Positions 31,105-50,899 of a DNA stretch of 64,000 bases are shown here, one piece after another; within the stretch, counting starts at the first letter, position 1; each line of letters opens with the position of its first letter. The translations under genes were made by a program, and so were the position numbers. Below the pieces are notes generated by a model. It had not been told where the DNA came from. It made no database searches and saw only the letters and a program-made list of their open reading frames with translations. Origin of the DNA: Candidatus Poribacteria bacterium (lineage in GTDB: Bacteria > Poribacteria > WGA-4E > PCPOR2b); NCBI GenBank assembly GCA_965207095.1, contig CBDBMC010000001.1, positions 4,230 through 68,229 on the forward strand, read 5' to 3'.

Positions 31105-31125
31105 TAATATTAGGAGATGCTCTTT

Positions 31126-33759
31126 ATGTCCAAACATCATTTCTTCGCCACTTTGATTGGGGTTCATCAGCAATTTCATCTCGTCAGAATTATCTGCCTA
31201 TCGGCCGCGATCATCGGTGCTCAAATAGCCTTCGACCAACTACAGATTACCCAAGACGCCCATGCCAGTTCTCAACAGCAGGCTGCGGTTGTTCAGATTC
31301 GTGACTCCAATCTACGCGCCGCAATAGCGGAAGCACTTGGTAAAAGCCCGAATGTGCCAATTACTACGGAAGAGATGGCTACATTAAGAGAACTCGAACT
31401 TCCGAACAGAGGTGTCCAAGATTTGACAGGCCTTCAGTTTGCAACCAATCTGAGACGGTTGAGGCTTGGAGATTGGGGCACGGGGAATCAGGTATCCGAC
31501 ATCTCGCCGCTATCGGGATTAATTAATCTACGTGAGCTCTGGCTTAGTCATAACCCCGTATCCGATCTATCCCCTCTGAGGGGCTTAAACAATCTTACTA
31601 GGCTGGAAATTCATAATACTCAGGTATCCGACCTGTCGCTGATCGCTGGACTAATCAGGCTGCAGCGGTTAGGTATTTCTCATGCCAACGTATCCGACCT
31701 GTCACCGATTGCTGGACTCATTAATCTAGAGAGATTCGATTTTCACGATGACAGCATATCGGACATATCGCCGTTGGCGCAATTAATCAACCTGAAAGAA
31801 TTTAACACGTGGGGCAATCCCATAACCGATATATCACCTATAGCGCAACTATCAAAGCTGGAGGTGGTAAATATTTGCGACGGAGATCTGACAGATCTCA
31901 CACCCTTAGTAGGATTAACAGGTTTGAAGGAACTGTATCTTGCCAACGACAGAATATCCGATATATCACCGCTTGCGAGATTAACCGGGTTAGAGCGTTT
32001 GAACCTTCAACGCAACCAATTTTCGGATATATCGCCGCTTGCAAGGTTAACTAACCTAGAATGGCTAGATCTTAGCGCGAACGAAATATCGAACATATCC
32101 CCGCTTGTGGGGTCAACCAACCTGACATGGTTAGATGTTTCAAACAACCAGATCTCCAATTTTTCGCCTCTGGACGGGATACGCGAGAATATAACGCTCA
32201 TTTGGCACGGCAATCCGGCGTTCCCACGAGGGGGACCTAAGATAGAGGGACCGTGGCTATGGGTATTGTTACTGAACACAGAACTGAGTAACACTATAGA
32301 TTTATTATCAGAAGCGAGTGGAGGTACAGTGACGGAGAGGGAGGTTGCCACCCATGGAGCAACAGAGGGGAAACCGGTTGGCGATGATGTGTGGACCGCC
32401 CACAGACTCCCGCCTGCGGGACATAAAAACATTGAAGATATGCTTCAACGTTCCATCCGTGGCGCCGTTCTTTACGGTTCCGTGTCCTTGCATTCACCAC
32501 GGGGGCAGGACACAACAATGTATGTCGGCGGTGAAGACGGTGTAAAGGTTTGGCTCAATGGAACTCTGATTTACGACCGTATCAGTAGTTGGAGTGGCAC
32601 CGATTATCAAGATTTTTTCCCAGTCACACTGAAACAGGGGAGAAATGTGTTGTTGGTCGCAGTTCCCACGCTAGGTACCGGCTTCTTTGGATTTGAACCC
32701 GGCACCGAATATACAGCCGCAAACTCCGGTATCAGTTACACCTTCTCCCAGACGCCAATTCACACGGGTGATACGTTTACCGTCGACATCGGTGCAAAAG
32801 ATTTCTTTGACCTGGCGGGCTGGCAATTTGATATCGCTTTCGACCCTGCAATCCTTGAAGCCATCAACGTGACTGAAGGCGATCTCCTTAAAATGGGTGG
32901 TGCAACCACCTTCTTTCAGGCTGGAACTATTAATAACAGAAGCGGAAGAATCACAAAACTCTTTGCCACACGACAGTCCACCGGTGGGGTCAGTGGAACG
33001 GACACCTTACTTCAGGTGACCTTCAGGGCAAAATCTGCCGGCAAAACAGCGTTGACACTGCGGAACGTGGAGTTCGGCCATCCCACCGGAGCACTTATCT
33101 CCGCAGGTCCGCATGAAGTTGGGATTACTGTAGGAGGACAACTTGCCACTGGTGACGTAAATCGAGATGGTATTGTCACCATTTTGGATTTGATTCTCAT
33201 CGCACGGCAGTTGGGGCAAAGGGTCTCCGCCAACTCACCGGCAGATCTCAATGGTGATGGTTCCGTCAGTATCCTCGATCTTATTCTTGCGGCACGAAGC
33301 CTTGGCAGCACCACGACACCTGCTGCACCTGCGATTGGGGTAGAAAGCATAGATGCTGCGACAGTAGCAGCATGGATAGCACAAGCACGGTTAGAAGATG
33401 ATGGGTCGCTTGCTTTCAAAGAAGGTATCGAAATACTTGAAACAATGTTAGCCTCGCTAATTCCTGAAGAGACCGCCCTGTTGGCAAACTATCCGAATCC
33501 GTTTAACCCGGAAACGTGGATATCTTATCAGTTGGCAGAGGCAGCGGAGGTTACACTAACCATCTATGATATGAACGGAAAGATGGTTCGATGTTTGGAA
33601 GTGGGTCATCAGGCAGCAGGTATGTATCGGACTCGAAGCCGGGCAGTGTATTGGGATGGGTGCAACCAACTTGGTGAGGCTGTTGCTAGTGGAGTCTACT
33701 TCTACGCACTAAGGGCAGATAATTTCACAGCTACGCGACGGATGCTTATATTAAAATAA
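31126..33759 (+). CDS. LRR1: internalin-type LRR + beta-sandwich + cohesin + dockerin + Por/T9SS-type CTD secreted protein
   Basis: The signal-anchor region is MSKHHFFATLIGVHQQFHLVRIICLSAAIIGAQIA..AHA. About 12 22-residue LRRs (L..L.L..N.ISDISPLAGLTNL) follow, then a GPWLW..VWLNG..VTLKQGRNVLLV jelly-roll-like domain. The cohesin contains DTFTVDIGAKDFFDLAGWQFDIAFDPAILEAINV. The dockerin (from nt 33151) is GDVNRDGIVTILDLILIARQLG..DLNGDGSVSILDLILAARSLG. The tail is NYPNPFNPETW..YFY..RRMLILK. The ORF track start is 31117; ATG 31126 fits the RBS better. Confidence 0.85.
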   Translation: MSKHHFFATLIGVHQQFHLVRIICLSAAIIGAQIAFDQLQITQDAHASSQQQAAVVQIRDSNLRAAIAEALGKSPNVPITTEEMATLRELELPNRGVQDLTGLQFATNLRRLRLGDWGTGNQVSDISPLSGLINLRELWLSHNPVSDLSPLRGLNNLTRLEIHNTQVSDLSLIAGLIRLQRLGISHANVSDLSPIAGLINLERFDFHDDSISDISPLAQLINLKEFNTWGNPITDISPIAQLSKLEVVNICDGDLTDLTPLVGLTGLKELYLANDRISDISPLARLTGLERLNLQRNQFSDISPLARLTNLEWLDLSANEISNISPLVGSTNLTWLDVSNNQISNFSPLDGIRENITLIWHGNPAFPRGGPKIEGPWLWVLLLNTELSNTIDLLSEASGGTVTEREVATHGATEGKPVGDDVWTAHRLPPAGHKNIEDMLQRSIRGAVLYGSVSLHSPRGQDTTMYVGGEDGVKVWLNGTLIYDRISSWSGTDYQDFFPVTLKQGRNVLLVAVPTLGTGFFGFEPGTEYTAANSGISYTFSQTPIHTGDTFTVDIGAKDFFDLAGWQFDIAFDPAILEAINVTEGDLLKMGGATTFFQAGTINNRSGRITKLFATRQSTGGVSGTDTLLQVTFRAKSAGKTALTLRNVEFGHPTGALISAGPHEVGITVGGQLATGDVNRDGIVTILDLILIARQLGQRVSANSPADLNGDGSVSILDLILAARSLGSTTTPAAPAIGVESIDAATVAAWIAQARLEDDGSLAFKEGIEILETMLASLIPEETALLANYPNPFNPETWISYQLAEAAEVTLTIYDMNGKMVRCLEVGHQAAGMYRTRSRAVYWDGCNQLGEAVASGVYFYALRADNFTATRRMLILK

Positions 33760-34052
33760 CCTAAGTTGCTAGCCTGTATGCCGCCTTTCCGCACTCGCCA
33801 CTAATTGAAGTAACGATACACATGTCGCCCCGCTGGGGCTTGGGGATGTAGGAAGTCACTGCGGCTATAAACATGTCGCCCTGCTGGGGCTAAAAAACGG
33901 GGAAAGTCCTCAAACTATACACATTGCGCTCCGCTGGAGCGCAGGCATTGACCGCATCGCCGTTCTATAGACATACCGCTCCTCCGGAGCGAAAGATAGA
34001 ATCCCTCAATTTTAACGACAAACCGATGGAGGCTCAACACTAGCAACTTGTG
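33760..34052 (+). mobile_element. MITE family K inserted at the LRR1 stop codon (first of two tandem copies)
   Basis: Bracketed by TTAAAATAA at 33751-33759 (which includes the LRR1 stop) and 34053-34061. The TIRs are CCTAAGTTGCTAG / CTAGCAACTTGTG. Confidence 0.8.
33816..33991 (+). repeat. Array of four family-B REP-like hairpin units (period about 50 bp) inside the K element
   Basis: The units are ACATGTCGCCCCGCTGGGGC, ACATGTCGCCCTGCTGGGGC, ACATTGCGCTCCGCTGGAGCGC and ACATACCGCTCCTCCGGAGCG. Stem changes are compensatory (GCCCC/GGGGC versus GCTCC/GGAGC). Other units lie at about 100, 17805, 22663, 22712, 25149, 25198, 30924, 30970, 31020, 34180, 34235, 55818, 55868, 61458, 61508, 63345, 63420, 63770 and 63820. 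Confidence 0.75.
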
Positions 34053-34061
34053 TTAAAATAA

Positions 34062-34466
34062 CCTAAGTTGCCAGTTGTGTTATAACGCTACACACATGTC
34101 GCGCTGCCTCACTCGGATCGGAAAATCAAAACAACTGGGACTGTGTTGGTGGCTCATTGGACTGCTGAACTCTATATACAGATTGCGCTTCGCTGGAGCG
34201 CAGGAACTGGACGCATTGGCATACTATAGACATATCGCTCCTCTGGAGCGAAAGGACATCTACTCTGGAGCGAAAGGACATCTACCTACTGAATTGTAGG
34301 GAACAACGATCGTTGTTCCCTACAATCATTGTATTGTCCCTCTAGCTGGGGGTCGGGCAAGTCGCTTTGGATCCCCCCGATAAATCGGGGTAAACTAATT
34401 ATCGGGGATGCCCAACCTACGGATATACGGGTCGATTATCGTACCGTACATAACTAGCAACTTGCG
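34062..34466 (+). mobile_element. MITE family K, second tandem copy (longer, composite)
   Basis: CCTAAGTTGCCAG ... CTAGCAACTTGCG, bracketed by TTAAAATAA at 34053-34061 and 34467-34475. Confidence 0.75.
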
Positions 34467-34562
34467 TTAAAATAAAGAAGTAGGCATACTTTTTTCGACG
34501 CATCGGAATTCAAGGCAATATACCGTAATCCCTGCAAACTATAATATTAGGAGGTGTTCTTT

Positions 34563-37500
34563 ATGTCCCAACATCATTTCTTCTCCACTTTGATTGGCGT
34601 TGATAAGCAATTTCGTCTCATTAGTATTATCTGCCTATTGATAGTCATCCTCGGTTTCCAGAATACATCCGCCCAACAACAGATAGCCGTAGATGCCTAC
34701 GCTATCTTTGAACAGAGCTGCCTTATCTGCCACGGTCCCCAAGGTGCCTATAAAGAAACACTCCTCATTGAACACAACGCACTCATCGAAAACGGAACCG
34801 TTGTACCGGGCAACCCCAACGCCTCCGAACTGTATAAACGACTCATAACCACTGAAATAGCCAAACGGATGCCGCTCCAACAACCCCCTCTATCCACTCA
34901 AGCAATTAATACCATCCGTAACTGGATTTTGGCAGGTGCACCCGATTGGGCAGCAACCACCACACCGACTGGCGACTTTATCTCGCACAACGAGATACTT
35001 AATGACATTGAGACGCACCTGATGTCGCTTTCACCGTTTGACCGTGCCTTTGCCCGTTACTTCACGATGACCCATCTCTATAACGCGGGGGTGGCGGCAC
35101 AGATACTTCAAGAATACCGAAAAGCACTCTATAAACTGGTCAATAGCCTCTCATGGGGGGTTGACGTCATCAACCCAGAATCCATCGACTCACAAGGCAC
35201 TATCTTCTACATCGACCTCAGACAATATGAGTGGGACGTCAATGATGGCTGGGGACAGATAGAAGCGGTATATCCTTACCACATCTCATTTGATGCACCC
35301 GCACAGGCAACACTGCAGCAACAACTCGGACGGTTACAGACAGAAACCAATAGTAGCGTCCCATCGGTACATGTCGACTGGTTCATAGCAACCGCATCTC
35401 TACCCCCACTCTACCACAATCTGCTCTCTCTACCATTGACAGATAGGGCGTTAGAGGCACGATTGGAGGTCGATGTGAATCGCAACATCAGCAATGCACC
35501 GGGCGTGCGTGTCTGGCGCGCAGGCACTGACGAGTCGGGCGTCTCCCAGAGCAACCGGGTGTTGGAACGGCATAACTCTCGATATGGCGCATATTGGAAA
35601 AGCTACGACTTTGCTGGAAGTGCTGGGACACAGAATATCTTCACCCACCCACTCAATTTCACCCAAGATGGTGGGGAGGTTATCTTCAATCTACCCAACG
35701 GGTTGCAAGGGTACTATATAGTAGACGCTACCGGTTCACGATTGGACGCAGCACCGATAAGCATTGTCTCCGATCCCGCAGCCAGTGACCCCACCGTCCG
35801 GACTGGGTTGTCCTGTTTCGGTTGTCATATAGAGGGGATGAACACCTTTGAGGACCAGGTGCGGGCTGTGATAGAGAGTAATACCAACCCAACTTACGAC
35901 AAAGCACAAGCGTTGCGGTTGTATGTAGAGAAGGCAGATATGGATGTACGGGTTCAAGAAGATATAGAAACGTATAGAGCCGCACTGGAAGAGACGGGGG
36001 GTGCGTTTGACGATATTGAACCGATCTCTCGGTTCCATGAGGCGTTTGAGGGCCCAGTCGATGTGGCACACGCTGCGGCTGTTGTGGGATTAGAGACTGA
36101 AGATTTGTTGGAAAAGATACGTGAGAACACAGGATTACAGAATGCAGGGTTGTTGGTGTTAGAGAGTAATGGGAGTATGAAAAGGGATACCTGGACATCA
36201 AGTTTCCAAGATGTGCTTTTTGCGCTGAATTTTCCGACACGGGTCGTGACACCTCCCATTGTGACACCTCCCATTGTGACGCCGCCGGTACGACCACCGG
36301 GTAGGGTTGTTCAGATTCCGGACGTAAACCTGCATGCAGCAATTGCAGAGGTACTTGGCAAAGGTTCCAATACCCCAATTACTGTAAGGGAGATGGAAGG
36401 ATTGCAAAGACTTTATATCAATAACAGAGGCATCCGTGATTTGACAGGACTTCAGTTTGCAATCAATCTGAGAGAGCTAAATCTCGATGATAATGAAATC
36501 TCCGATCTCTCACCGCTGGCAGGCTTAATCAACCTGCGAGACCTTCGGCTTCACCATAACCCCTTATCTGATATATCTCCCGTGCGCGGGCTAACAAATC
36601 TTACTCGCTTAGAGTTTGATGAATCTTCAGTTTCCGATATATCTCCCGTGAGGAACTTAACAAATCTCACCTATCTGGAGTTTGATCGCACTTTGGTCTC
36701 TGATATATCTCCCGTAAGGAATTTAACAAATCTCACTTACTTGGAGTTTCACGGTACTTTGGTATCAGACTTTTCGCCGATCATAGAATTAACCAATTTG
36801 GAGCACTTACATTTTGATGGTATCAATGTGTCCAACCTATCAATAGTTACAAGATTAGTCAGTCTTAAACGCCTTCTCTTGGGCAACTTAGGGGGTTCAT
36901 CAATCAATTTGTCGTTTCTGGCGCGATTAACAAACCTGGAGGAGATTAGTATGCACAATGGAGATATATCCAACCTTTCACCTTTGGCAGGTTTAACACG
37001 TTTGAGAGAACTACATATTACCAACTCCGGAATATCAGATATATCTGCCCTCGCCGGGCTAACCGAGTTAGTCCGTGTAGATCTTGCGGCCAACGAAATC
37101 TCAGATATATCTCCCCTTGCAGGCTTAACCAACTTAAGATGGGTGATCCTCCGCGAAAACCAGATTACTAACCTTTCCCTTGTGAATAGGTTACGTGCGA
37201 ATATACCGACGTTCGTCTGGCACGACAACCCAGGCTTCCCAGAGGTGGGTCCCACAATAGAGGGACCGTGGCTATGGGTTGTGTTACCAAACACAAGACC
37301 TAGTACCACAGATTTACTGTCAGAAGCGAGTGGAGGGACAGTGACAGAGACAGAGATTGCTACCTATGGGGCAATAGAGGGACAACCCGTCGGCGATGAT
37401 GTCTGGACATTCCGCAGCCTCCCGCCCACGGGGTGGAACAACGTTGACAAGATGCTTGGGGACCGCATCGATGGTGCCACCCTCTACGGTACGGTGTCCC

Positions 37501-38771
37501 TCTATTCTCCACGGCAACAGGTGAAAACCCTATACGTCGGCAGCCATAACGAGTTTAGGGTCTGGCTCAACGGCGAGTTGATTCACGACTCGCTCCGTTA
37601 CCACGCCAGCTTTGGTTACACAGATTCGCTCCCGGTCACACTCAAGCAGGGCAGAAATGTCCTGTTAGTCTCGGTTAGAGCCCAATATAACGCTTTCTTT
37701 GGATTTGAGCCGGGGACCGTATACGAAGTGGCAAACCCCGGCGTCAGTTACACCTTTTCTAAGTCTCCAATTCACCGTGAAGACACCTTTACTCTCGATA
37801 TTGGTGCAAAGGAGGTCATAGACATGGTAGCCTGGCAGTTTGATATCGCCTTCGACCCTGCTCACCTTGAAGCTATCAGTGTGACTGAAGGCAATTTCCT
37901 AAAGATGGGTAGCAGCACCCTCTTTCGGAGCGGAACCATTAACAACGCAACAGGTAGAATTGAGGGAATCAGCGCCTTACGGTTTGCTACTACCCACGGG
38001 GTCCGTGGAACCGGCACCATTGTTCAGGTGACGTTTAAGGCGAAAGCCTCTGGGGAAACACGGGTGACACTGGAAAAGTTCCAATTTGGCGCTCTCAGCG
38101 CGGACGAGATTCCCGCAGGACCCCACCAAATCCGTTTCACTGTGGAGGGACGGCTTGCGACCGGGGATGTCAATCGGGACGGAAGGGTTAGTGTTCTGGA
38201 CTTGATTCTCATTGCACAGCAGTTGGGGCAGAGGGTGCCCGCTGGCTCGCCGGTAGACCTCAACGGTGATGGTGTCGTCAGCATCCTCGACCTCATCCTC
38301 ACGGCACGGGCACTTGGAAATACTACAACTCCCGCCGCACCGGCTGGTGAAATGGAAGGGATAGATCCTGTGATGATAGAGGCCTGGATTGCACAAGCTC
38401 GGTTGGAAAATGACGGCTCGCTTGCCTTCAAGCAGGGTATCGAAATGCTTGAAAACCTACTCGCCGCGTTGGTTCCTGAAGAAACTGCGTTGTTGGCAAA
38501 CTATCCCAATCCGTTTAACCCAGAGACATGGATACCTTATCAGTTAGCAACTCCCGCAGACGTCACACTGACCATTTATGATATGAATGGACAGATGGTT
38601 CGACATATAGCGGTAGGGCATCAGACAGCAGGTATGTATCGGACTCGAAGCCGTGCCGTCTATTGGGACGGACGCAACCAACTCGGTGAGGCTGTTGCCA
38701 GTGGAGTCTACTTCTACACACTAACGGCAGATAATTTCACAGCTACACGACGGATGCTGATTCTAAAATAA
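34563..38771 (+). CDS. Long paralog A: PSCyt-like haem-binding head (2x CXXCH) + PT linker + LRR + beta-sandwich + cohesin + dockerin + CTD
   Basis: CLICH at 34719-34733 sits within a planctomycete-cytochrome-c-like segment (..GNPNASELYKRL..MP..PPLS..INTIRNWILAGAP). CFGCH is at 35814-35828. The linker is VVTPPIVTPPIVTPPVRPP. The remaining architecture matches LRR1. The ORF track starts at GTG 34554; ATG 34563 is homologous to the paralog starts. Confidence 0.85.
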   Translation: MSQHHFFSTLIGVDKQFRLISIICLLIVILGFQNTSAQQQIAVDAYAIFEQSCLICHGPQGAYKETLLIEHNALIENGTVVPGNPNASELYKRLITTEIAKRMPLQQPPLSTQAINTIRNWILAGAPDWAATTTPTGDFISHNEILNDIETHLMSLSPFDRAFARYFTMTHLYNAGVAAQILQEYRKALYKLVNSLSWGVDVINPESIDSQGTIFYIDLRQYEWDVNDGWGQIEAVYPYHISFDAPAQATLQQQLGRLQTETNSSVPSVHVDWFIATASLPPLYHNLLSLPLTDRALEARLEVDVNRNISNAPGVRVWRAGTDESGVSQSNRVLERHNSRYGAYWKSYDFAGSAGTQNIFTHPLNFTQDGGEVIFNLPNGLQGYYIVDATGSRLDAAPISIVSDPAASDPTVRTGLSCFGCHIEGMNTFEDQVRAVIESNTNPTYDKAQALRLYVEKADMDVRVQEDIETYRAALEETGGAFDDIEPISRFHEAFEGPVDVAHAAAVVGLETEDLLEKIRENTGLQNAGLLVLESNGSMKRDTWTSSFQDVLFALNFPTRVVTPPIVTPPIVTPPVRPPGRVVQIPDVNLHAAIAEVLGKGSNTPITVREMEGLQRLYINNRGIRDLTGLQFAINLRELNLDDNEISDLSPLAGLINLRDLRLHHNPLSDISPVRGLTNLTRLEFDESSVSDISPVRNLTNLTYLEFDRTLVSDISPVRNLTNLTYLEFHGTLVSDFSPIIELTNLEHLHFDGINVSNLSIVTRLVSLKRLLLGNLGGSSINLSFLARLTNLEEISMHNGDISNLSPLAGLTRLRELHITNSGISDISALAGLTELVRVDLAANEISDISPLAGLTNLRWVILRENQITNLSLVNRLRANIPTFVWHDNPGFPEVGPTIEGPWLWVVLPNTRPSTTDLLSEASGGTVTETEIATYGAIEGQPVGDDVWTFRSLPPTGWNNVDKMLGDRIDGATLYGTVSLYSPRQQVKTLYVGSHNEFRVWLNGELIHDSLRYHASFGYTDSLPVTLKQGRNVLLVSVRAQYNAFFGFEPGTVYEVANPGVSYTFSKSPIHREDTFTLDIGAKEVIDMVAWQFDIAFDPAHLEAISVTEGNFLKMGSSTLFRSGTINNATGRIEGISALRFATTHGVRGTGTIVQVTFKAKASGETRVTLEKFQFGALSADEIPAGPHQIRFTVEGRLATGDVNRDGRVSVLDLILIAQQLGQRVPAGSPVDLNGDGVVSILDLILTARALGNTTTPAAPAGEMEGIDPVMIEAWIAQARLENDGSLAFKQGIEMLENLLAALVPEETALLANYPNPFNPETWIPYQLATPADVTLTIYDMNGQMVRHIAVGHQTAGMYRTRSRAVYWDGRNQLGEAVASGVYFYTLTADNFTATRRMLILK
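34672..36334 (+). repeat. 1.66-kb segment about 99.8% identical to 43887-45549 (head domain of long paralogs A and B)
   Basis: Constant offset of 9215 nt with no indels. I found only 4 differences (A positions 35000, 35039, 36026 and 36176), all synonymous third-position transitions. Confidence 0.9.
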
Positions 38772-38859
38772 AGTAGCAGGCATACGCCGGTCCCACGAGT
38801 CGGAACTCAAGGTAAGATGCTGTAGTCCCTGCAAACTATATTATTGGGAGATACTCTCT

Positions 38860-41499: not shown

Positions 41500-41534
41500 T
41501 GAGGAATCTATCATCTACTTTGATAACCTACAAT

Positions 41535-41646: not shown

Positions 41647-41697
41647 ACCTACAATAAACTGTGTTACTATTTACCTTAACCGTAAGGGAGAAAATCG

Positions 41698-43754: not shown

Positions 43755-43777
43755 ATATACCAGGAGGCACTCTTTGA

Positions 43778-46700
43778 ATGCGTAAATGCGATTTCGTTCC
43801 CAATTTGATTAGAACCTGTCAGAAACAACATCTTGCCTCACTCATCACGCTATTGATATTCACCGTCAGTTCTCAAGATATATCTGCGCAACAACAGATA
43901 GCCGTAGATGCCTACGCTATCTTTGAACAGAGCTGCCTTATCTGCCACGGTCCCCAAGGTGCCTATAAAGAAACACTCCTCATTGAACACAACGCACTCA
44001 TCGAAAACGGAACCGTTGTACCGGGCAACCCCAACGCCTCCGAACTGTATAAACGACTCATAACCACTGAAATAGCCAAACGGATGCCGCTCCAACAACC
44101 CCCTCTATCCACTCAAGCAATTAATACCATCCGTAACTGGATTTTGGCAGGTGCACCCGATTGGGCAGCAACCACCACACCGACTGGCGACTTTATCTCG
44201 CACAACGAGATACTCAATGACATTGAGACGCACCTGATGTCGCTTTCACCGTTCGACCGTGCCTTTGCCCGTTACTTCACGATGACCCATCTCTATAACG
44301 CGGGGGTGGCGGCACAGATACTTCAAGAATACCGAAAAGCACTCTATAAACTGGTCAATAGCCTCTCATGGGGGGTTGACGTCATCAACCCAGAATCCAT
44401 CGACTCACAAGGCACTATCTTCTACATCGACCTCAGACAATATGAGTGGGACGTCAATGATGGCTGGGGACAGATAGAAGCGGTATATCCTTACCACATC
44501 TCATTTGATGCACCCGCACAGGCAACACTGCAGCAACAACTCGGACGGTTACAGACAGAAACCAATAGTAGCGTCCCATCGGTACATGTCGACTGGTTCA
44601 TAGCAACCGCATCTCTACCCCCACTCTACCACAATCTGCTCTCTCTACCATTGACAGATAGGGCGTTAGAGGCACGATTGGAGGTCGATGTGAATCGCAA
44701 CATCAGCAATGCACCGGGCGTGCGTGTCTGGCGCGCAGGCACTGACGAGTCGGGCGTCTCCCAGAGCAACCGGGTGTTGGAACGGCATAACTCTCGATAT
44801 GGCGCATATTGGAAAAGCTACGACTTTGCTGGAAGTGCTGGGACACAGAATATCTTCACCCACCCACTCAATTTCACCCAAGATGGTGGGGAGGTTATCT
44901 TCAATCTACCCAACGGGTTGCAAGGGTACTATATAGTAGACGCTACCGGTTCACGATTGGACGCAGCACCGATAAGCATTGTCTCCGATCCCGCAGCCAG
45001 TGACCCCACCGTCCGGACTGGGTTGTCCTGTTTCGGTTGTCATATAGAGGGGATGAACACCTTTGAGGACCAGGTGCGGGCTGTGATAGAGAGTAATACC
45101 AACCCAACTTACGACAAAGCACAAGCGTTGCGGTTGTATGTAGAGAAGGCAGATATGGATGTACGGGTTCAAGAAGATATAGAAACGTATAGAGCCGCAC
45201 TGGAAGAGACGGGGGGTGCGTTTGACGATATTGAACCGATTTCTCGGTTCCATGAGGCGTTTGAGGGCCCAGTCGATGTGGCACACGCTGCGGCTGTTGT
45301 GGGATTAGAGACTGAAGATTTGTTGGAAAAGATACGTGAGAACACAGGATTACAGAATGCAGGGTTGTTGGTGTTAGAGAGTAATGGGAGCATGAAAAGG
45401 GATACCTGGACATCAAGTTTCCAAGATGTGCTTTTTGCGCTGAATTTTCCGACACGGGTCGTGACACCTCCCATTGTGACACCTCCCATTGTGACGCCGC
45501 CGGTACGACCACCGGGTAGGGTTGTTCAGATTCCGGACGTAAACCTGCGTGCCGGAATAGCAGGGGCACTTGGTAAAAGCGCCAATGCCTCCATTACTGT
45601 AGGGGAGATGGAAGGATTGGAAGAACTTTATGTCAGAAATAGAGGCATCCGTGATTTGACAGGACTTCAGTTTGCAATCAATCTGAGAAGGCTAAATCTC
45701 GATAATAATGAATTCTCCGATCTCTCACCGCTGGCAGGCTTAATCAACCTAGAGGAACTCTGGCTTAACGAGAGTTTCGTGTCTGATTTATCTCCCTTGA
45801 GAGGATTGATAAATCTTTTTAGACTGTGGCCTCGACGCTCTCTGATTTCTGACCTCTCACCTATAGCAGGTTTAATCAACCTACGAAGCATCTCCCTTCG
45901 GGGCAATCCTCTATCCGATATATCCCCCTTGAGAGGGTTGATAAATCTCACTGAACTGTGGGTTGATGATGATACTCAGGTATCCGACCTCTCACCGATT
46001 GCAGGATTACCCAATCTGGAGCGTTTAGCTTTTGACGGTGACAAGGTATCCAACCTGTCGCCGCTTGCAAGATTGGTTAATTTGAAACGCATTCGCATAG
46101 ACGACTTAGAAGGTTCATCAATCAATTTATCCGCCCTTGCGGCATTAACAGACCTGGAGGAGATTAGTATTCACGACGGAGATAGATTGGACCTTTCACC
46201 TTTGGCAGGTTTAACAGGTTTGAGAGAACTACATATTACTAACTCTGGAATCTCAGATATACGTCCCCTTGCACGGTTAACCGGATTGGTCCGTATGAAT
46301 CTTTCAGAGAACGAAATCTCTGATATATCTCCGCTTCTAGGGTTAACCAATTTGAAATGGGTAATCCTCATCCGCAACCAGATTACTAATCTTTCCCTTG
46401 TGAATAGGTTACGTGCGAATATACCAACCTTCGTTTGGCACGACAATCCGGGCTTCCCAAAGGTGGGTCCAACAATAGAGGGACCGTGGCTATGGATTGT
46501 GTTACGGAACACAGACCGGCATAGAAGTGCGGACTTGCTGTCAGAAGCGAGTGGCGGGGCGGTGACAGAGACAGAGATTGCTACCTATGGGGTAACAGAG
46601 GGACAACCCCTCGGCGATGATGTCTGGACATTCCGCACACTCCCACCTACGGGCTGGAACAACGTTGACAAGATGCTTGGGGACCGCATCGATGGTGCCA

Positions 46701-48031
46701 CCCTTTACGGTACGGTGTCCCTCTATTCTCCACGGCAACAGGTGAAAACCCTATACGTCGGCAGCCATAACGAGTTTAGGGTCTGGCTCAACGGCGAGTT
46801 GATTCACGACTCGCTCCGTTACCACGCCAGCTTTGGTTACACAGATTCGCTCCCGGTCACACTCAAGCAGGGCAGAAATGTCCTGTTAGTCTCGGTTAGA
46901 GCCCAATATAACGCTTTCTTTGGATTTGAGCCGGGGACCGTATACGAAGTGGCAAACCCCGGCGTCAGTTACACCTTTTCTAAGTCTCCAATTCACCGTG
47001 AAGACACCTTTACTCTCGACATTGGTGCAAAGGAGGTCATAGACATGGTAGCCTGGCAGTTTGATATCGCCTTCGACCCTGCTGACCTTGAAGCTATCAG
47101 TGTGACTGAAGGCAATTTCTTAAAGATGGGTAGCAGCACCCTCTTTCAGAGCGGTACTATCAACAACAGAGCAGGTCGGATTGAGGGACTCAGCGCCTTG
47201 CGGTTTGCTACTACCCACGGGGTCCGCGGGACCGGCACCATTGTTCAGGTGACGTTTAAGGCGAAAGCCTCTGGGGAAACACGGGTGACACTGGAAAAGT
47301 TCCTATTCGGCGCTCTCAGCGCGGACGAGATTCCCGCAGGACCCCACCAAATCCGTTTCACTGTGGAGGGACGGCTTGCGACCGGGGATGTGAATCGAGA
47401 TGGAAGGGTCAGTGTTCTGGACTTGATTCTCATTGCACAGCAGTTGGGGCAGAGGGTATCCGCTGGCTCACCGGTGGATCTCAACGGTGATGGTATTGTC
47501 AGCATCCTCGACCTCATCCTCACAGCACGGGCACTTGGCAATACTACAACTCCCGCTGCACCGGCTGGTGAAATGGAAGGGATGGATCCTGCGATGATAG
47601 AAGTGTGGATAGCGCAGGCACGGTTGGAAGATGATGGCTCACTTGCCTTCAAAGAGGGCATCGAGATGCTTGAAAGACTATTAGCTTCCCTAATACCTAA
47701 AGAGACCGCGTTGTTAGCAAACTATCCCAATCCGTTTAACCCGGAAACGTGGATACCGTATCAGTTGGCAGAGGCAGCGGAGGTCACGCTAACCATCTAT
47801 GATATGAACGGCGGGATAGTTCGACAGCTGGCATTGGGACATCAAGGAGCGGGTATATATCGGACGAGAAGCCGTGCCGTCTATTGGGACGGACGCAACC
47901 GACTCGGTGAGGTTGTTGTCAGTGGGCTCTATTTCTACACACTCACAGTTCGTTCTCCCAATTCCATCGGGACAAGCGAGACCGGGACCGATGAATTTAC
48001 AGCGACACGGAAGATGCTAATATTAAAATGA
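43778..48031 (+). CDS. Long paralog B: PSCyt-like 2x CXXCH head + PT linker + LRR + beta-sandwich + cohesin + dockerin + CTD (CTD carries a 13-aa insertion)
   Basis: 1417 aa. CXXCH motifs are at 43934-43948 and 45029-45043. The head is identical in protein sequence to paralog A, the LRR block is divergent, and the middle and C-terminal modules are again nearly identical. Confidence 0.85.
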   Translation: MRKCDFVPNLIRTCQKQHLASLITLLIFTVSSQDISAQQQIAVDAYAIFEQSCLICHGPQGAYKETLLIEHNALIENGTVVPGNPNASELYKRLITTEIAKRMPLQQPPLSTQAINTIRNWILAGAPDWAATTTPTGDFISHNEILNDIETHLMSLSPFDRAFARYFTMTHLYNAGVAAQILQEYRKALYKLVNSLSWGVDVINPESIDSQGTIFYIDLRQYEWDVNDGWGQIEAVYPYHISFDAPAQATLQQQLGRLQTETNSSVPSVHVDWFIATASLPPLYHNLLSLPLTDRALEARLEVDVNRNISNAPGVRVWRAGTDESGVSQSNRVLERHNSRYGAYWKSYDFAGSAGTQNIFTHPLNFTQDGGEVIFNLPNGLQGYYIVDATGSRLDAAPISIVSDPAASDPTVRTGLSCFGCHIEGMNTFEDQVRAVIESNTNPTYDKAQALRLYVEKADMDVRVQEDIETYRAALEETGGAFDDIEPISRFHEAFEGPVDVAHAAAVVGLETEDLLEKIRENTGLQNAGLLVLESNGSMKRDTWTSSFQDVLFALNFPTRVVTPPIVTPPIVTPPVRPPGRVVQIPDVNLRAGIAGALGKSANASITVGEMEGLEELYVRNRGIRDLTGLQFAINLRRLNLDNNEFSDLSPLAGLINLEELWLNESFVSDLSPLRGLINLFRLWPRRSLISDLSPIAGLINLRSISLRGNPLSDISPLRGLINLTELWVDDDTQVSDLSPIAGLPNLERLAFDGDKVSNLSPLARLVNLKRIRIDDLEGSSINLSALAALTDLEEISIHDGDRLDLSPLAGLTGLRELHITNSGISDIRPLARLTGLVRMNLSENEISDISPLLGLTNLKWVILIRNQITNLSLVNRLRANIPTFVWHDNPGFPKVGPTIEGPWLWIVLRNTDRHRSADLLSEASGGAVTETEIATYGVTEGQPLGDDVWTFRTLPPTGWNNVDKMLGDRIDGATLYGTVSLYSPRQQVKTLYVGSHNEFRVWLNGELIHDSLRYHASFGYTDSLPVTLKQGRNVLLVSVRAQYNAFFGFEPGTVYEVANPGVSYTFSKSPIHREDTFTLDIGAKEVIDMVAWQFDIAFDPADLEAISVTEGNFLKMGSSTLFQSGTINNRAGRIEGLSALRFATTHGVRGTGTIVQVTFKAKASGETRVTLEKFLFGALSADEIPAGPHQIRFTVEGRLATGDVNRDGRVSVLDLILIAQQLGQRVSAGSPVDLNGDGIVSILDLILTARALGNTTTPAAPAGEMEGMDPAMIEVWIAQARLEDDGSLAFKEGIEMLERLLASLIPKETALLANYPNPFNPETWIPYQLAEAAEVTLTIYDMNGGIVRQLALGHQGAGIYRTRSRAVYWDGRNRLGEVVVSGLYFYTLTVRSPNSIGTSETGTDEFTATRKMLILK
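43887..45549 (+). repeat. Partner of the 34672-36334 near-identical segment
   Basis: See 34672-36334. A second near-identical block is about 37441-37860 versus about 46662-47085 (offset 9221, about 3 differences). Confidence 0.9.
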
Positions 48032-48094
48032 AGTAGTAGGCATACTTCCTATGCCGTAACCTTCACAAACTCACATACTTAGGAGACACTCTTT

Positions 48095-50899
48095 ATGATT
48101 AAACGTCATTTAGTCCCGGGTTTGATTAGGGTTCGTAAGCAACCGCATTTCATCAAAATCATCTGTCTATTGGCAGTCATTCTCGGCATTCAAACAGTAG
48201 CCGTCCAACTACAGATTATCGAAGATGCCTATGCTAGCTCTCAACAGGTTGTTCGTATCCCGGACCCAAACCTACGTGCGTTGATTGCAGAGACGCTTGG
48301 CAAAAGCCCCAATGCCCCAATTACTGTCGAAGATATGGAAAGGCTGAGAGAAATTGATGCGAGAGAAGACAAGGGGATCAAAGATTTGACAGGACTTCAA
48401 TATGCGACCAATCTGGTCGAGTTATATCTTGGTTGGTACTCTGGGGAGGGCAATCAGGTCAAGGATCTCTCGCCGGTAGCAGGCTTAACCAACCTCCGTG
48501 TGCTTTTTCTTCACCATAACCCTATATCCGATCTATCTCCCGTGAGAGGCTTAACAAATCTGACCGATCTGATGCTTCACGATACTTTGGTATCGGATAT
48601 ATCCCCCGTCAGGGGCTTAACCAACCTTACTAAATTACACTTTCACGGGACTGAGGTAACTGACCTATCACCAATCCGCGGACTCATTAACCTGAAAAAC
48701 TTAGCCTTTTCTGATCCAGATCTATCTGATATATCGCCGCTTGCAGGCTTAATTAATCTAGACACGATTTTCTCGTGGAACCACTCTATATCCGATTTAT
48801 CCGCTTTGTCCGGCTTGACAAAATTGAGGAGTATAGATTTGTGCGGTGGAAACATATCGGATTTAACGCCTTTGGGGAGCTTGACCGGTTTGAAAGAGCT
48901 GTATTTAGTCGGTAACGATATATCGGATATATCACCGCTTGCTAGATTAACCGGGTTAACCCGTGTGTCGCTTAGGGTTAATAACATATCGAATCTATCG
49001 CCCATTAGGAGCCTGACCCAATTGGATTGGTTAGAACTTGGCGATAACGATATATCGGATATATTACCCCTCGCGGGATTAACCGGATTGACCCATTTGG
49101 ATCTTCAGCTCAACGCCATCTCAAATCTATTCTCGCTTGCAGGATTAACCAACTTAACATGGCTTAACCTTCAAAACAACAACATCTCGGACGTGGTCCC
49201 GCTTGCGGGTTTGACCAACTTAACTTGGCTAAATGTTGTAGAAAACGAGATCTCCGATCTTTCGCCTTTGGACGGGTTCCGCGAGAATCTAAAACTCATC
49301 TATCACGGCAATCCAGCGTTCCCGAAAGGGGGACCGCAAATAGAAGGGCCATGGTTATGGACAATCGTCCCGACAGGCGGGAGGGCTGGTAGTGATGCTG
49401 CTGCTTCTGGCATAGATTTTCTAGCACAAACAAGTGGCGGTGAAGTAACGGAGTTGGCGGTTGCAGCAGTCGGTGCAAATGAAGGATCCCCTGTCGGAGA
49501 CAGCCTGTGGGTAGCCGAGAGAATTTCGACAGCGGACGATAACATCAACACAATGGCGAACGCGACCGGACTAGGAACAGGCAATATAAACCACCATGTT
49601 GCTTACGGTTCAATTACCTTGAATACACCGCGAGAGCAAGACACAATGATGTTTGTAGGGAGTAATGATGCTGTCAAGATTTGGCTCAATGGACAGTTAG
49701 TTCACAACAATCCTATCGATCGGAAGGTTAGCGGCTATGCGGATATTTTTCCTGTTACGTTAAAGATGGGAATAAATATCTTATTAGTTGCTGTTTACGA
49801 GGGAGGCGGTACTTGGAGCGGCTTTTTTGGGTTTGAACCCGACACCGAATATACAACGGCAAACCCCGGTGTCAGTTACACCTTCTCCAAGACGCCAATT
49901 CACCGTGACGACACCTTTACCCTCGACATCGGGGCAAGAGATTTCCTTGACTTGGCAGGTTGGCAGTTTGATATCATCTTCGACCCTGCAATCCTTGAAG
50001 TTATCAACGTGATTGAAGGCAATTTCCTTAAAATGGGCGGTGCAAACACCTTCTTTCAGACTGGAACAATCAATAACGCAACCGGCAGAATCACAGGATT
50101 CACCGCTGCACGCACTTCCCCCGGTGGGATCAGTGGGACGGGCATACTCCTTCAGGTGACGTTCACGGCGAAAGCCGCAGGAGAAACAGACTTGACACTG
50201 CGGAACGTCGAGTTCGGCCATCCCACCGGGGCACTCATCCCAGCAGGTCCCCATCAAATACACATCACCGTGGGAGGACGAATTGCCACCGGGGACGTGA
50301 ATCGAGATGGTATTGTCACCATTTTGGATCTGATTCTCATCGCACGGCAGTTGGGGCAAAGGGTCTCCGCCAACGCACCGGCTGATCTCAACGGTGATGG
50401 TTCGGTCAGTATCCTTGACCTGATTCTTGCAGCACGAAATCTTGGCAGCACCACAGCGCCTGCTGCGCCTCCGATTGGGGTAGAAAACATAGATGCTGCT
50501 ACAATAGCCGCATGGATTGCAGAAGCACGGTTGGAAGATGATGGTTCACCTGTTTTCAAAGACGGTATCGAAATGCTTGAAAAAACGTTAGCCTCGCTGA
50601 TTCCTCAAGAGACTGCATTGCTTCATAACTATCCGAATCCGTTTAACCCGGAGACTTGGATACCGTATCAGTTGGCAGAGTCGGCAGACGTGACACTAGC
50701 AATTTATGATATGAACGGTCAATTGGTTCGACGTTTGGCATTGGGACATCAAGCAGCAGGTATGTATCGGACTCGAAGCCGCGCGGTGTATTGGGACGGA
50801 CGCAACCAACTTGGTGAGCCCCTCGCCAGTGGAGTCTACTTCTATACACTGACAGCGGATAATTTCACGGATACACGACGGCTGCTGATTCTAAAATAA
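48095..50899 (+). CDS. LRR3: internalin-type LRR (about 15 repeats) + beta-sandwich + cohesin + dockerin + CTD secreted protein
   Basis: 934 aa with the same module order as LRR1 and LRR2. The dockerin is GDVNRDGIVTILDLILIARQLG..DLNGDGSVSILDLILAARNLG. The tail is NYPNPFNPETWIPYQL..YFYTL..RRLLILK. Confidence 0.85.
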   Translation: MIKRHLVPGLIRVRKQPHFIKIICLLAVILGIQTVAVQLQIIEDAYASSQQVVRIPDPNLRALIAETLGKSPNAPITVEDMERLREIDAREDKGIKDLTGLQYATNLVELYLGWYSGEGNQVKDLSPVAGLTNLRVLFLHHNPISDLSPVRGLTNLTDLMLHDTLVSDISPVRGLTNLTKLHFHGTEVTDLSPIRGLINLKNLAFSDPDLSDISPLAGLINLDTIFSWNHSISDLSALSGLTKLRSIDLCGGNISDLTPLGSLTGLKELYLVGNDISDISPLARLTGLTRVSLRVNNISNLSPIRSLTQLDWLELGDNDISDILPLAGLTGLTHLDLQLNAISNLFSLAGLTNLTWLNLQNNNISDVVPLAGLTNLTWLNVVENEISDLSPLDGFRENLKLIYHGNPAFPKGGPQIEGPWLWTIVPTGGRAGSDAAASGIDFLAQTSGGEVTELAVAAVGANEGSPVGDSLWVAERISTADDNINTMANATGLGTGNINHHVAYGSITLNTPREQDTMMFVGSNDAVKIWLNGQLVHNNPIDRKVSGYADIFPVTLKMGINILLVAVYEGGGTWSGFFGFEPDTEYTTANPGVSYTFSKTPIHRDDTFTLDIGARDFLDLAGWQFDIIFDPAILEVINVIEGNFLKMGGANTFFQTGTINNATGRITGFTAARTSPGGISGTGILLQVTFTAKAAGETDLTLRNVEFGHPTGALIPAGPHQIHITVGGRIATGDVNRDGIVTILDLILIARQLGQRVSANAPADLNGDGSVSILDLILAARNLGSTTAPAAPPIGVENIDAATIAAWIAEARLEDDGSPVFKDGIEMLEKTLASLIPQETALLHNYPNPFNPETWIPYQLAESADVTLAIYDMNGQLVRRLALGHQAAGMYRTRSRAVYWDGRNQLGEPLASGVYFYTLTADNFTDTRRLLILK

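What the first reader, a model, noticed from the sequence alone, without database searches (positions are those of the whole stretch)
31126..50899. Enzyme-free cohesin-dockerin system: five LRR proteins that each carry both a cohesin and a dockerin, plus a free two-cohesin scaffoldin
Six co-oriented genes lie in 20 kb. LRR1, long paralog A, LRR2, long paralog B and LRR3 all end with the same cassette: beta-sandwich, cohesin, about 12-aa spacer, dockerin, helical linker and Por/T9SS-type C-terminal domain. In the dockerin both Ca loops are intact (DVNRDGxVxxLD and DLNGDGxVSILD).

Between them sits a secreted protein (41698-43284) with two cohesins and no dockerin or CTD. Counting the neighbouring protease, the spondin protein and the frameshifted LRR gene, I see 9 cohesin-like and 7 dockerin-like modules in the window, and not a single glycoside hydrolase.

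In classical cellulosomes the cohesins sit on scaffoldins and the dockerins on enzymes. Here the payload is an internalin-type (22-residue) LRR binding module. A cohesin and a dockerin adjacent in one chain predict head-to-tail daisy-chaining, or an intramolecular clasp, on the cell surface. That would make a modular adhesion or host-interaction lattice rather than a degradative machine.
Basis: partly seen in the sequence, partly recalled or inferred. Interest (0 to 1): 0.85.

Follow-up and report, generated by a model that had tools for sequence, protein, structure and literature searches.

The report
Poribacterial cohesin-dockerin LRR surface proteins
A gene cluster from a Poribacteria bacterium (a phylum known from sponge symbionts) encodes secreted proteins that join leucine-rich-repeat binding modules to the cohesin and dockerin "socket and plug" modules known from cellulose-degrading complexes; this points to a self-assembling surface adhesion system, but no binding has been tested.

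Summary
All five large genes between 31117 and 50899 encode 22-residue LRR arrays, a PA14-like beta-sandwich, a cohesin, a two-loop dockerin, a conserved two-helix module and a TIGR04183 C-terminal sorting domain (CTD). Each module passes its curated cut-off. The sixth gene encodes a signal peptide, two cohesins and a conserved unknown C-terminal domain.

- The organism is Candidatus Poribacteria, and the cassette is a very large family there (at least 4990 protein clusters; all 77 named loci of the best 80 are Poribacteria).
- The conserved core is the long form. Its N-terminus is a ~530-aa domain with two invariant CxxCH haem motifs.
- Other Poribacteria split the roles as cellulosomes do. 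They have dockerin-only LRR proteins next to cohesin+dockerin long proteins, three-cohesin+dockerin+CTD scaffoldin-like proteins, and cohesin+CTD proteins.

"Enzyme-free" is only partly right. An M36 peptidase in the window carries a cohesin and half a dockerin, and the long forms carry a putative haem domain. Daisy-chaining is plausible and has a precedent (Ruminococcus bromii Amy4) but is untested. An AlphaFold model (pTM 0.70) hints at a compact cohesin-dockerin unit.

I rate this a new variant of non-cellulosomal cohesin-dockerin systems. I found no description of it for Poribacteria in the papers searched.

The parts
31117..33759 (+). LRR1 (880 aa). Modules: signal-like N-terminus; LRR cap and array 31297-32217; PA14-like 32242-32721; cohesin 32722-33135; dockerin 33151-33315; two-helix module 33316-33483; CTD 33484-33756.
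   Evidence: Pfam, NCBIfam TIGR04183, module coordinates, AlphaFold and Foldseek, PA14 match to 6qe7 at E 1.2e-5.
34554..38771 (+). Long paralogue A (1405 aa). Modules: N-terminal domain 34671-36263 with CxxCH motifs at 34719-34733 and 35814-35828; LRR 36315-37232; PA14-like 37257-37733; cohesin 37734-38147; dockerin 38163-38327; helices 38328-38495; CTD 38496-38768.
38860..41499 (+). LRR2 (879 aa). Modules: LRR 39031-39948; PA14-like 39973-40461; cohesin 40462-40875; dockerin 40891-41055; helices 41056-41223; CTD 41224-41496.
41698..43284 (+). Secreted two-cohesin protein (528 aa). Signal peptide MNKQLFRFTLFLLVSLSLPSIAA; cohesin 1 about 41770-42147; Thr/Pro linker; cohesin 2 about 42310-42693; conserved unknown C-terminal domain 42700-43281. 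No dockerin and no CTD.
   Evidence: Pfam Cohesin x2 at 81 bits; no NCBIfam hit; 273 homologues, some with a CTD; same position next to long genes in L001 and L081.
43778..48031 (+). Long paralogue B (1417 aa). N-terminal domain 100% identical to A, with CxxCH motifs at 43934-43948 and 45029-45043; LRR 45530-46450; PA14-like 46475-46954; cohesin 46955-47368; dockerin 47384-47548; helices 47549-47716; CTD 47717-48028.
48095..50899 (+). LRR3 (934 aa). Modules: LRR 48257-49315; PA14-like 49340-49861; cohesin 49862-50275; dockerin 50291-50455; helices 50456-50623; CTD 50624-50896.
22915..25007 (+). Broken LRR-dockerin-helices-CTD gene with no PA14-like domain and no cohesin. 22915-23361 encodes the signal, cap and LRRs; 23595-25007 continues in another frame. 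Dockerin loops at 24402-24437 and 24489-24524.
9506..13573 (-). M36 metallopeptidase with FTP/PepSY propeptide, PPC domain, a single dockerin F-hand (10313-10348), a cohesin and the CTD.
13689..16448 (-). Protein with an N-terminal cohesin, a spondin domain and the CTD. Its cohesin is 40-42% identical to those of the two-cohesin protein.

Best explanation
What it is (shown): the region is one instance of a Poribacteria-wide, non-cellulosomal cohesin-dockerin system built from exported modular proteins. Each cassette protein has a signal-like N-terminus and a binding head made of an internalin-type 22-residue LRR array plus a PA14-like lectin-type sandwich. The long form adds a conserved two-CxxCH domain. 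Each ends in a fixed unit: cohesin, 6-8 residues, a two-F-hand dockerin, a two-helix module and a TIGR04183-type C-terminal sorting domain.

How it most likely works (inferred): the proteins are exported by Sec. They are then taken to or across the outer membrane by whatever system reads the CTD. The dockerins fold on binding Ca2+ and plug into cohesins of neighbouring proteins. The cohesin partners would be the cassette cohesins, the free two-cohesin protein, and the cohesin+CTD and three-cohesin scaffoldin-like proteins seen in relatives. The result is a non-covalently cross-linked surface assembly that presents many fast-diverging LRR heads to sponge-host or particle ligands.

Status of each step: module identities and family distribution are shown. 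Secretion route, Ca2+ dependence, who binds whom and the ligand are inferred.
For: - Module calls exceed curated cut-offs. The cohesin fold is confirmed. The dockerin aligns over both repeats with the solved dockerin 2y3n_B at E 1.4e-6. Ca-ligand residues are invariant in 69 sequences.
- The two dockerin repeats are identical at 15 of 21 positions, read directly from the sequence. Such symmetry is seen in dual-binding-mode dockerins.
- The family is large: at least 4990 protein clusters, and at least 552 genomic stretches in species-representative genomes. The best 80 loci are all from Poribacteria or unnamed MAGs.
- Neighbourhood logic: 19 dockerin-only LRR genes in 18 loci lie next to cohesin+dockerin long genes. 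Three-cohesin+dockerin+CTD genes abut long genes in L031 and L040. Cohesin+CTD and two-cohesin genes flank long genes in L001, L081 and the window.
- Within the window, cohesin and dockerin sort into the same two classes, short genes versus long genes. The LRR arrays are the most divergent module at 42-68% identity.
- Poribacteria are already known to be rich in LRR proteins and in TIGR04183 tails (PMC3909097).
- A cohesin and dockerin in one chain causing self-association is documented for R. bromii Amy4 (PMC4611034).
Against: - No binding was predicted or measured here, because only monomer AlphaFold was available.
- A pTM of 0.70 and the fixed short linker are also compatible with a closed cis clasp that would block networking.
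- Por/T9SS structural genes were reported as not found in poribacterial single-cell genomes (PMC3909097). The export and anchoring step is therefore unverified.
- The window's two-cohesin protein has no CTD, so its location is unknown.
- The dockerin is more conserved than the adjacent cohesin. Its main partner could therefore be something other than that cohesin.
- The role of the haem-motif domain in an adhesion model is unexplained.
Confidence: 0.55

Rival explanations
1. Intramolecular clasp. In each chain the dockerin folds back on its own cohesin, possibly together with the two-helix module. This would make a rigid Ca2+-stabilised stalk between the binding head and the CTD, with no network between proteins.
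For: - pTM is 0.70 for a 261-residue construct in which the cohesin is only about half the residues. My estimate, not a tool output, is that an unplaced dockerin would give about 0.5.
- The cohesin-to-dockerin distance is fixed at 6-8 residues in most of 51 family members.
- Cohesin and dockerin classes co-vary within the window.
Against: - Many relatives have a dockerin with no cohesin in the same chain, or one dockerin with two or three cohesins. Separate cohesin-only proteins also exist. A purely cis function would make these pointless.
- Model coordinates and predicted aligned error were not available, so the predicted contact surface is unknown.
Confidence: 0.2
2. Part of a wider enzyme-bearing complex. 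The LRR proteins would be targeting or adhesion subunits of a cellulosome-like degradative assembly. Its dockerin- or cohesin-tagged enzymes (peptidases, sulfatases, glycosidases) are mostly encoded elsewhere in the genome.
For: - The M36 peptidase in the window carries a cohesin, a single F-hand and the CTD.
- Many doc-hel-CTD and doc-CTD proteins of 700-1300 aa in the fetched loci have N-terminal parts that I did not identify.
- LRR-dockerin proteins coexist with enzymes in the R. flavefaciens cellulosome (PMC2930009).
- Cloacimonadota are reported with dockerin-bearing enzymes plus a scaffoldin-like protein carrying a CTD (PMC8542988).
Against: - No glycoside hydrolase or other dockerin-tagged enzyme was seen in the window apart from M36.
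- The dominant and best conserved cassette carriers are LRR proteins.
Confidence: 0.25
3. Structural modules only. The cohesin acts as an Ig-like spacer and the dockerin as a Ca2+-dependent folding or stability element next to the sorting domain, with no specific cohesin-dockerin recognition.
For: - Non-cellulosomal cohesin-like and dockerin-like modules are widespread, and most have no demonstrated binding (stated in PMC9012536, which cites Peer et al. 2009).
- The doc-hel-CTD unit occurs without any cohesin in the same protein in many family members.
Against: - Recurrent multi-cohesin and cohesin-only partner proteins sit in the same neighbourhoods.
- Helix residues after both Ca loops are strongly conserved.
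- The archaeal non-cellulosomal pairs that have been tested do bind (stated in PMC9012536).
Confidence: 0.12
4. Redox or sensing function of the long forms. The conserved two-CxxCH N-terminal domain would be the real payload, as an extracytoplasmic haem enzyme or sensor. The LRR and cassette would only position it.
For: - Both CxxCH motifs and Met106 are invariant in 55 sequences.
- PSCyt1 matches 54 of 55 members, and a weak match to the haem enzyme family CTI appears in 39 of 55 (best E 3e-6).
- The long N-terminal domain is more conserved than the cohesin, dockerin or helical modules: 66% mean identity against 53-60%.
- The domain family is large (5366 representatives). Elsewhere it is fused to kinases, WD40, FGE-sulfatase and TPR domains.
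Against: - The three short genes lack this domain yet keep the rest of the architecture.
- AlphaFold failed on it (pLDDT 36), so there is no fold evidence.
- Haem attachment is only inferred from the motifs.
Confidence: 0.15

Closest known systems
Ruminococcus bromii amylosome protein Amy4 (cohesin and dockerin in one polypeptide)
   Same: One chain carries both modules. Its dockerin recognises its own cohesin, so the protein can self-aggregate and also recruit other dockerin proteins (PMC4611034).
   Different: Amy4 is a GH13 amylase of a Gram-positive gut bacterium. Here the payload is LRR, PA14-like and a haem-motif domain, the host has an outer membrane, and the chain ends in a T9SS-type CTD. 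Binding is not demonstrated here.
Non-cellulosomal cohesin/dockerin proteins of Archaeoglobus fulgidus, ANME archaea and Clostridium perfringens
   Same: Cohesin and dockerin modules occur outside plant cell-wall degradation. The cassette cohesin model is closest in fold to the C. perfringens cohesin-like module 2jh2 (TM 0.76-0.81) and is also close to the A. fulgidus cohesin 2xdh. ANME archaea have proteins with one dockerin plus up to five cohesins, proposed to organise extracellular structures (PMC9012536).
   Different: The payloads differ: ABC-transporter binding proteins in ANME, and glycosidase toxins in C. perfringens. None of them has the LRR-PA14 head, the conserved two-helix module or the CTD. 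Sequence identity to those cohesins is only 10-18%.
Classical cellulosomes (for example R. flavefaciens, including its SIGN-LRR-Doc proteins)
   Same: There is a hierarchy of dockerin-only cargo, multi-cohesin+dockerin adaptor proteins and cohesin+anchor proteins. R. flavefaciens FD-1 has 28 LRR modules among its dockerin proteins (PMC2930009).
   Different: No dockerin-tagged glycoside hydrolases were seen here. The anchor is a CTD instead of an SLH domain or sortase signal. The main cargo proteins in this window also carry a cohesin.
Cellulosome-like system proposed for Cloacimonadota (Ca. Stygibacter)
   Same: A bacterium with an outer membrane in which cohesin-bearing scaffoldin-like proteins end in a T9SS-type CTD (PMC8542988).
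   Different: There the dockerins sit on chitinase, amylase and peptidase homologues, and the scaffoldin carries CBMs. Here the dockerins sit on LRR proteins.
T9SS type A cargo proteins of Bacteroidota
   Same: An N-terminal signal plus a C-terminal TIGR04183 domain that scores above the curated cut-off.
   Different: Poribacteria are not Bacteroidota, and Por secretion structural genes were reported as not found in their single-cell genomes (PMC3909097). The conserved dockerin and two-helix unit directly upstream of the CTD is not a described feature of T9SS cargo, as far as I know.

Membership tests
Cohesin (PF00963) | Sequence match above Pfam's gathering score | tested here: met
   32-42 bits against a cut-off of 24.1 in all five cassette proteins, and 81 bits over two stretches in the two-cohesin protein. 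The M36 cohesin scores 26.1 bits and the spondin protein's 42.6 bits.
Cohesin (PF00963) | Nine-stranded beta-sandwich cohesin fold | tested here: met
   In the AlphaFold2 model the cohesin part has pLDDT 90-98. The best 50 Foldseek matches in the PDB are all cohesins, at probability 1.00 and target-normalised TM up to 0.81.
Cohesin (PF00963) | Binds a cognate dockerin | not testable with these tools
   Only monomer prediction was available. There are no coordinates, no predicted aligned error and no multimer model.
Dockerin type I (PF00404) | Sequence match above the gathering score, covering both repeats | tested here: met
   32-38 bits against a cut-off of 22.9. The segment aligns over both repeats with the solved dockerin 2y3n_B at E 1.4e-6.
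Dockerin type I (PF00404) | Two F-hand segments, each a 12-residue Ca2+ loop (D/N at positions 1, 3, 5 and D at 12) followed by a helix | tested here: met
   Twelve loops in six genes match D-x-[NDS]-x-[DN]-G-x-[VIL]-x-x-x-D. D151, N153, D155, D162, D181, D185 and D192 are invariant in 69 sequences. Helices follow both loops in the model. The M36 peptidase has only one such segment.
T9SS type A cargo | C-terminal TIGR04183 sorting domain above NCBIfam's cut-off | tested here: met
   28.5-38.2 bits against a cut-off of 23 in the six CTD-bearing proteins scanned; LRR2 and long B were not scanned. Pfam's Por_Secre_tail model falls just below its own cut-off, at 21-27 bits against 27.
T9SS type A cargo | The organism encodes the T9SS machinery (PorK/L/M/N, Sov/SprA, PorU, PorV) | not tested
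   None of the window ORFs of 200 aa or more that I scanned matched a T9SS component. PMC3909097 reports that Por structural genes were not found in (incomplete) poribacterial single-cell genomes.
Internalin-type LRR proteins | 22-residue LRR period with an N-terminal cap | tested here: met
   Spacing of 22 residues dominates in all six LRR proteins. The cap region matches internalin K and B caps in the PDB.
Internalin-type LRR proteins | Membership of a named internalin family (NCBIfam InlA, InlH and others) | tested here: not met
   Scores of 156-210 bits against cut-offs of 1050-1600. The repeats are internalin-like, but these are not internalin orthologues.
PA14 domain | Sequence or fold match to PA14 | tested here: inconclusive
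   phmmer against the PDB finds the RsgI3 PA14 domain 6qe7 at E 1.2e-5 and 6qdi at E 4e-4, but only over 40-60 residues. Pfam gives no PA14 hit, only a weak BetaGal_ABD2 match at E 0.036. This domain was not modelled.
Cellulosome | Dockerin-bearing carbohydrate-active enzymes assembled on multi-cohesin scaffoldins | tested here: not met
   Multi-cohesin proteins exist. No glycoside hydrolase, and no dockerin-tagged enzyme other than the M36 peptidase, was found in the window.
c-type cytochrome domain (PSCyt1) | CxxCH haem-attachment motif and a match to the family model | tested here: met
   PSCyt1 scores 24.0-24.5 bits against a cut-off of 22 when the domain is scanned alone, and 21.7 bits on the whole protein. 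It matches 54 of 55 family members. C56, C59 and H60, and also C421, C424 and H425, are invariant. Haem binding itself cannot be tested here.
Fatty acid cis/trans isomerase (CTI, PF06934) | Match above the gathering score over the enzyme's length | tested here: not met
   15.8-16.1 bits against a cut-off of 25, over about 95 of 692 profile positions for the window protein. 39 of 55 relatives give weak hits, best E 3.3e-6. This is a lead to distant relatedness, not membership.

The most novel reading that the evidence does not exclude
Poribacteria would possess a phylum-wide "adhesosome". This would be a hierarchical cohesin-dockerin scaffold with cohesin+CTD anchors, multi-cohesin+dockerin adaptors, and LRR/PA14/dihaem cargo that is itself both plug and socket. 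It would self-assemble into a surface lattice presenting rapidly diversifying LRR heads to the sponge host. The lineage has no recognised type IX secretion machinery, so the conserved dockerin, two-helix module and CTD unit would define a new export or anchoring route.
Probability: 0.25. Interest if true: 0.8.

Novelty: new variant of a known kind. Interest (0 to 1): 0.6.

Why it matters
- Sponge symbionts are known to be rich in eukaryote-like repeat proteins, including LRRs. How these proteins are displayed, and whether they act singly or as assemblies, is unknown.
- This locus and its relatives suggest that in Poribacteria the LRR proteins are wired together by cohesin-dockerin pairs. That gives a concrete, testable model for the symbiont surface.
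- It extends the cohesin-dockerin principle to a host-associated phylum with an outer membrane.
- It offers a set of presumably orthogonal cohesin-dockerin pairs. At least three cohesin classes occur in this one window.
- It sharpens a question left open in 2014 (PMC3909097): what reads the TIGR04183-type tails in a phylum where Por secretion genes were not found?
- The conserved two-CxxCH domain is a large, uncharacterised family in its own right (5366 representatives).

Tried and rejected
- AlphaFold2 on the long N-terminal domain (alignment A3, 55 sequences, 73-80% identical) failed with pLDDT 36.5 and pTM 0.20. No fold search was run on it.
- Sequence searches of the PDB found little. For that domain they gave only generic cytochrome c matches (FoxE, a cbb3 oxidase subunit) and LRR caps. 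For the C-terminal domain of the two-cohesin protein they gave nothing credible.
- Pfam at E up to 10 gave nothing for the two-helix module or for the C-terminal domain of the two-cohesin protein.
- An exact-sequence look-up of the window's two-cohesin protein found no record, so the source sample is unknown.
- Peer et al. 2009 (PMC3035643) and Kamke et al. 2013 (PMC3834845) are not held. What I say about A. fulgidus AF2375 beyond the cited papers rests on my own knowledge.
- The promoter and terminator scan of the locus was not clearly above shuffled expectation and says nothing about operon structure.
- Literature searches for Poribacteria with cohesin, dockerin or type IX secretion returned nothing relevant.
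- I considered a covariation (DCA) test of cohesin-dockerin contacts. I dropped it because only about 190 sequences were in hand.
- I at first suspected that the protein database held only half-length long proteins. L081 shows that full-length (1366 aa) and frameshift-split copies coexist.


Full report
**Observation**

The region holds six co-oriented ORFs on the + strand: 31117-33759, 34554-38771, 38860-41499, 41698-43284, 43778-48031 and 48095-50899.

Pfam calls the following in all five large proteins:
- LRR_4, with E from 6e-26 to 1e-43.
- Cohesin, at 32-42 bits against a gathering score of 24.1.
- Dockerin_1, at 32-38 bits against 22.9.
- A C-terminal FlgD_ig/Por_Secre_tail domain.

NCBIfam TIGR04183, the T9SS type A sorting domain, passes its cut-off in all six CTD-bearing proteins I scanned, at 28-38 bits against 23. 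These were three of the five cassette proteins plus the LRR-dockerin gene, the M36 peptidase and the spondin protein.

It also finds a sixth full dockerin at 24402-24524 and a single F-hand in the M36 peptidase at 10313-10348 on the minus strand.

The fourth gene has two cohesins (81 bits) and neither a dockerin nor a CTD. With the cohesins of the M36 peptidase and the spondin protein, the window holds nine cohesins and six and a half dockerins. No glycoside hydrolase occurs among ORFs of 200 aa or more. The LRR period is 22 residues.

**Structure check**

I modelled LRR1 residues 530-790 with AlphaFold2, using 68 homologues as the alignment. The model has mean pLDDT 84 and pTM 0.70. It contains a beta-sandwich, two short helices that each follow a Ca loop, and a two-helix hairpin.

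The best 50 Foldseek matches in the PDB are all cohesins. The closest are the non-cellulosomal cohesin-like module of C. perfringens (2jh2, TM 0.76-0.81), type II cohesins and the A. fulgidus cohesin 2xdh. The dockerin segment aligns over both repeats with the solved dockerin 2y3n_B at E 1.4e-6.

The "beta-sandwich" upstream of the cohesin matches the PA14 domains of RsgI3 (6qe7, E 1.2e-5) and 6qdi. It is therefore probably a lectin-type module.

1. The organism is Candidatus Poribacteria.
 - The cassette has at least 4990 homologous protein clusters. Those that carry a name are called [quoted passage not shown].
 - A scan of species-representative genomes found at least 552 coding stretches. 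Of the best 80 loci, 77 are from Poribacteria MAGs and 3 are from unnamed MAGs.

2. The conserved core is the long form.
 - The most frequent architecture in those loci is the long N-terminal domain followed by LRR, PA14-like, cohesin, dockerin, helices and CTD, about 1400 aa in more than 50 ORFs.
 - The N-terminal domain of about 530 aa has two CxxCH motifs (C56/C59/H60 and C421/C424/H425 of long A). Both are invariant in 55 sequences.
 - It matches PSCyt1 in 54 of 55 members. It matches the haem enzyme family CTI weakly in 39 of 55.
 - It belongs to a large uncharacterised family of 5366 representatives at E up to 1e-3. In other organisms it is fused to protein kinases, WD40 propellers, FGE-sulfatase and TPR domains.
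 - AlphaFold failed on it.

3. Other Poribacteria divide the roles as cellulosomes do.
 - 19 short genes in 18 loci are LRR, PA14-like, dockerin, helices and CTD with no cohesin. Only 8-12 residues separate the PA14-like domain from the dockerin. Each lies next to a long cohesin+dockerin gene.
 - Three-cohesin+dockerin+CTD proteins abut long genes in L031 and L040.
 - Cohesin+CTD and two-cohesin proteins flank long genes in L001 and L081, as in the window.
 - The two-cohesin protein has 273 homologues. They share a conserved C-terminal domain of unknown function, and some add a CTD.

**Within the window**

- The cohesins fall into at least three classes: cassette, free plus spondin, and M36. 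Identity between classes is 23-39%.
- Cassette cohesins and dockerins split into the same two subtypes, short genes versus long genes.
- The paralogues are mosaics. Long A and long B compare as follows: N-terminal domain 100%, LRR 68%, PA14-like 92%, cohesin 96%, CTD 71%.
- The LRR array is the most divergent module everywhere, at 42-68% identity. This fits diversifying binding heads on a conserved assembly and anchoring unit.
- The cohesin-dockerin linker is fixed at 6-8 residues in most of 51 family members.
- The two-helix module and the CTD are at least as conserved as the dockerin.

**Mechanism**

The best-supported reading is a non-cellulosomal cohesin-dockerin assembly of exported LRR proteins. 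The steps would be Sec export, CTD-dependent delivery to the surface, Ca2+-dependent folding of the dockerin, and binding in trans to cohesins of neighbouring cassette proteins, scaffoldin-like proteins or anchor-like cohesin+CTD proteins.

The evidence is indirect. It consists of the conserved neighbourhoods and the complementary architectures. The dockerin's internal symmetry (15 of 21 positions identical between its two repeats) is compatible with a dual binding mode.

A cis clasp is not excluded. The pTM of 0.70 is higher than I would expect if the dockerin were unplaced relative to the cohesin. I had no coordinates or predicted aligned error, so I cannot say which surface is used.

The secretion step is the weakest link. 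Kamke et al. 2014 already noted TIGR04183 tails on poribacterial repeat proteins but found no Por secretion structural genes (PMC3909097). I could not scan whole genomes for them.

**Comparison with what is known**

- Cohesin plus dockerin in one chain with self-recognition is documented for R. bromii Amy4 (PMC4611034).
- Non-cellulosomal cohesin/dockerin systems are described in archaea and other bacteria, including one-dockerin/multi-cohesin proteins in ANME archaea (PMC9012536).
- LRR-dockerin proteins are numerous in R. flavefaciens (PMC2930009).
- Scaffoldin-like proteins carrying a CTD are proposed in Cloacimonadota (PMC8542988).

No single element is new. What is new is the combination:
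- an LRR/PA14 head, with or without the dihaem domain;
- cohesin and dockerin side by side;
- a conserved helical module and a CTD;
- a large, phylum-wide expansion in a lineage best known as sponge symbionts.

Searches of the held literature found no paper that links Poribacteria with cohesin or dockerin.

**Verdict**

The adhesion-lattice idea is reasonable and testable. "Enzyme-free" is overstated because of the M36 peptidase and the haem-motif domain. The daisy chain is unproven.
- Novelty: a new variant of a known kind.
- Interest: 0.6.

Noticed in passing
window 25709-28471 (+), in-frame TGA at 26825-26827: A molybdopterin oxidoreductase with 2Fe-2S, 4Fe-4S and Fe4S4 domains is split into two ORFs in the same frame by one TGA. 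The TGA sits in the motif CSRA-*-HAPTVAGL. This looks like a selenocysteine codon of a formate-dehydrogenase-type alpha subunit rather than a broken gene.
   Followed up: partly
window 22915-25007; L081 8001-10568 and 10582-12234; L026, L043, L048, L052: Genes of this family are often split by a frameshift, most often inside the 66-nt-periodic LRR array. Many database proteins are such halves; for example P0294 ends out of frame and P0032 resumes the array. The cause could be assembly error in repeats, strain heterogeneity or real slippage. It is not resolved.
   Followed up: partly
window 34671-36263 and 43886-45478: The N-terminal domain of the long paralogues is PSCyt1 plus about 450 aa with a second invariant CxxCH. 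It belongs to a large uncharacterised family (5366 representatives). Elsewhere it is fused to Ser/Thr kinases, WD40, FGE-sulfatase and TPR domains. It resembles CTI weakly. AlphaFold could not fold it.
   Followed up: partly
window 34293-34326: A perfect 34-nt palindrome with a 15-bp stem (ATTGTAGGGAACAACGATCGTTGTTCCCTACAAT) lies in the 795-nt gap between LRR1 and long A. It could be a terminator or a repeat element.
   Followed up: no
window 7576-9504 (-): A DUF6785+DUF6784 protein (642 aa) starts two bases after the stop of the M36-cohesin-CTD gene, which itself follows the spondin-cohesin-CTD gene. This may be an operon of surface proteins with an unknown protein.
   Followed up: no
window 33316-33483 and the equivalent segment in every cassette: The two-helix module between the dockerin and the CTD (consensus WIAQARLEDDGSLAFKQGIE..LL.SLIPEETALL) has many invariant residues. 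It travels with the dockerin even in proteins without a cohesin. It has no Pfam match.
   Followed up: partly
window 31117-50899, paralogue comparison: The paralogues show module-wise mosaicism. Long A and long B are 100% identical over about 535 aa at the N-terminus but only 68% in the LRR array and 71% in the CTD. The CTD of long A is closer to those of LRR1 and LRR3 (86-87%). This suggests recombination or gene conversion among cassette genes.
   Followed up: partly
L081 2852-3748: A DDE transposase gene (DUF4096/DDE_Tnp_1) lies between the cohesin+CTD gene and the first long gene of a related cluster.
   Followed up: no
window 17951-20471 (-): PhyH-family dioxygenase and sulfatase genes lie near the cluster. 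A PhyH-domain expansion in Poribacteria is tabulated in PMC3909097. This fits the taxonomic assignment.
   Followed up: no
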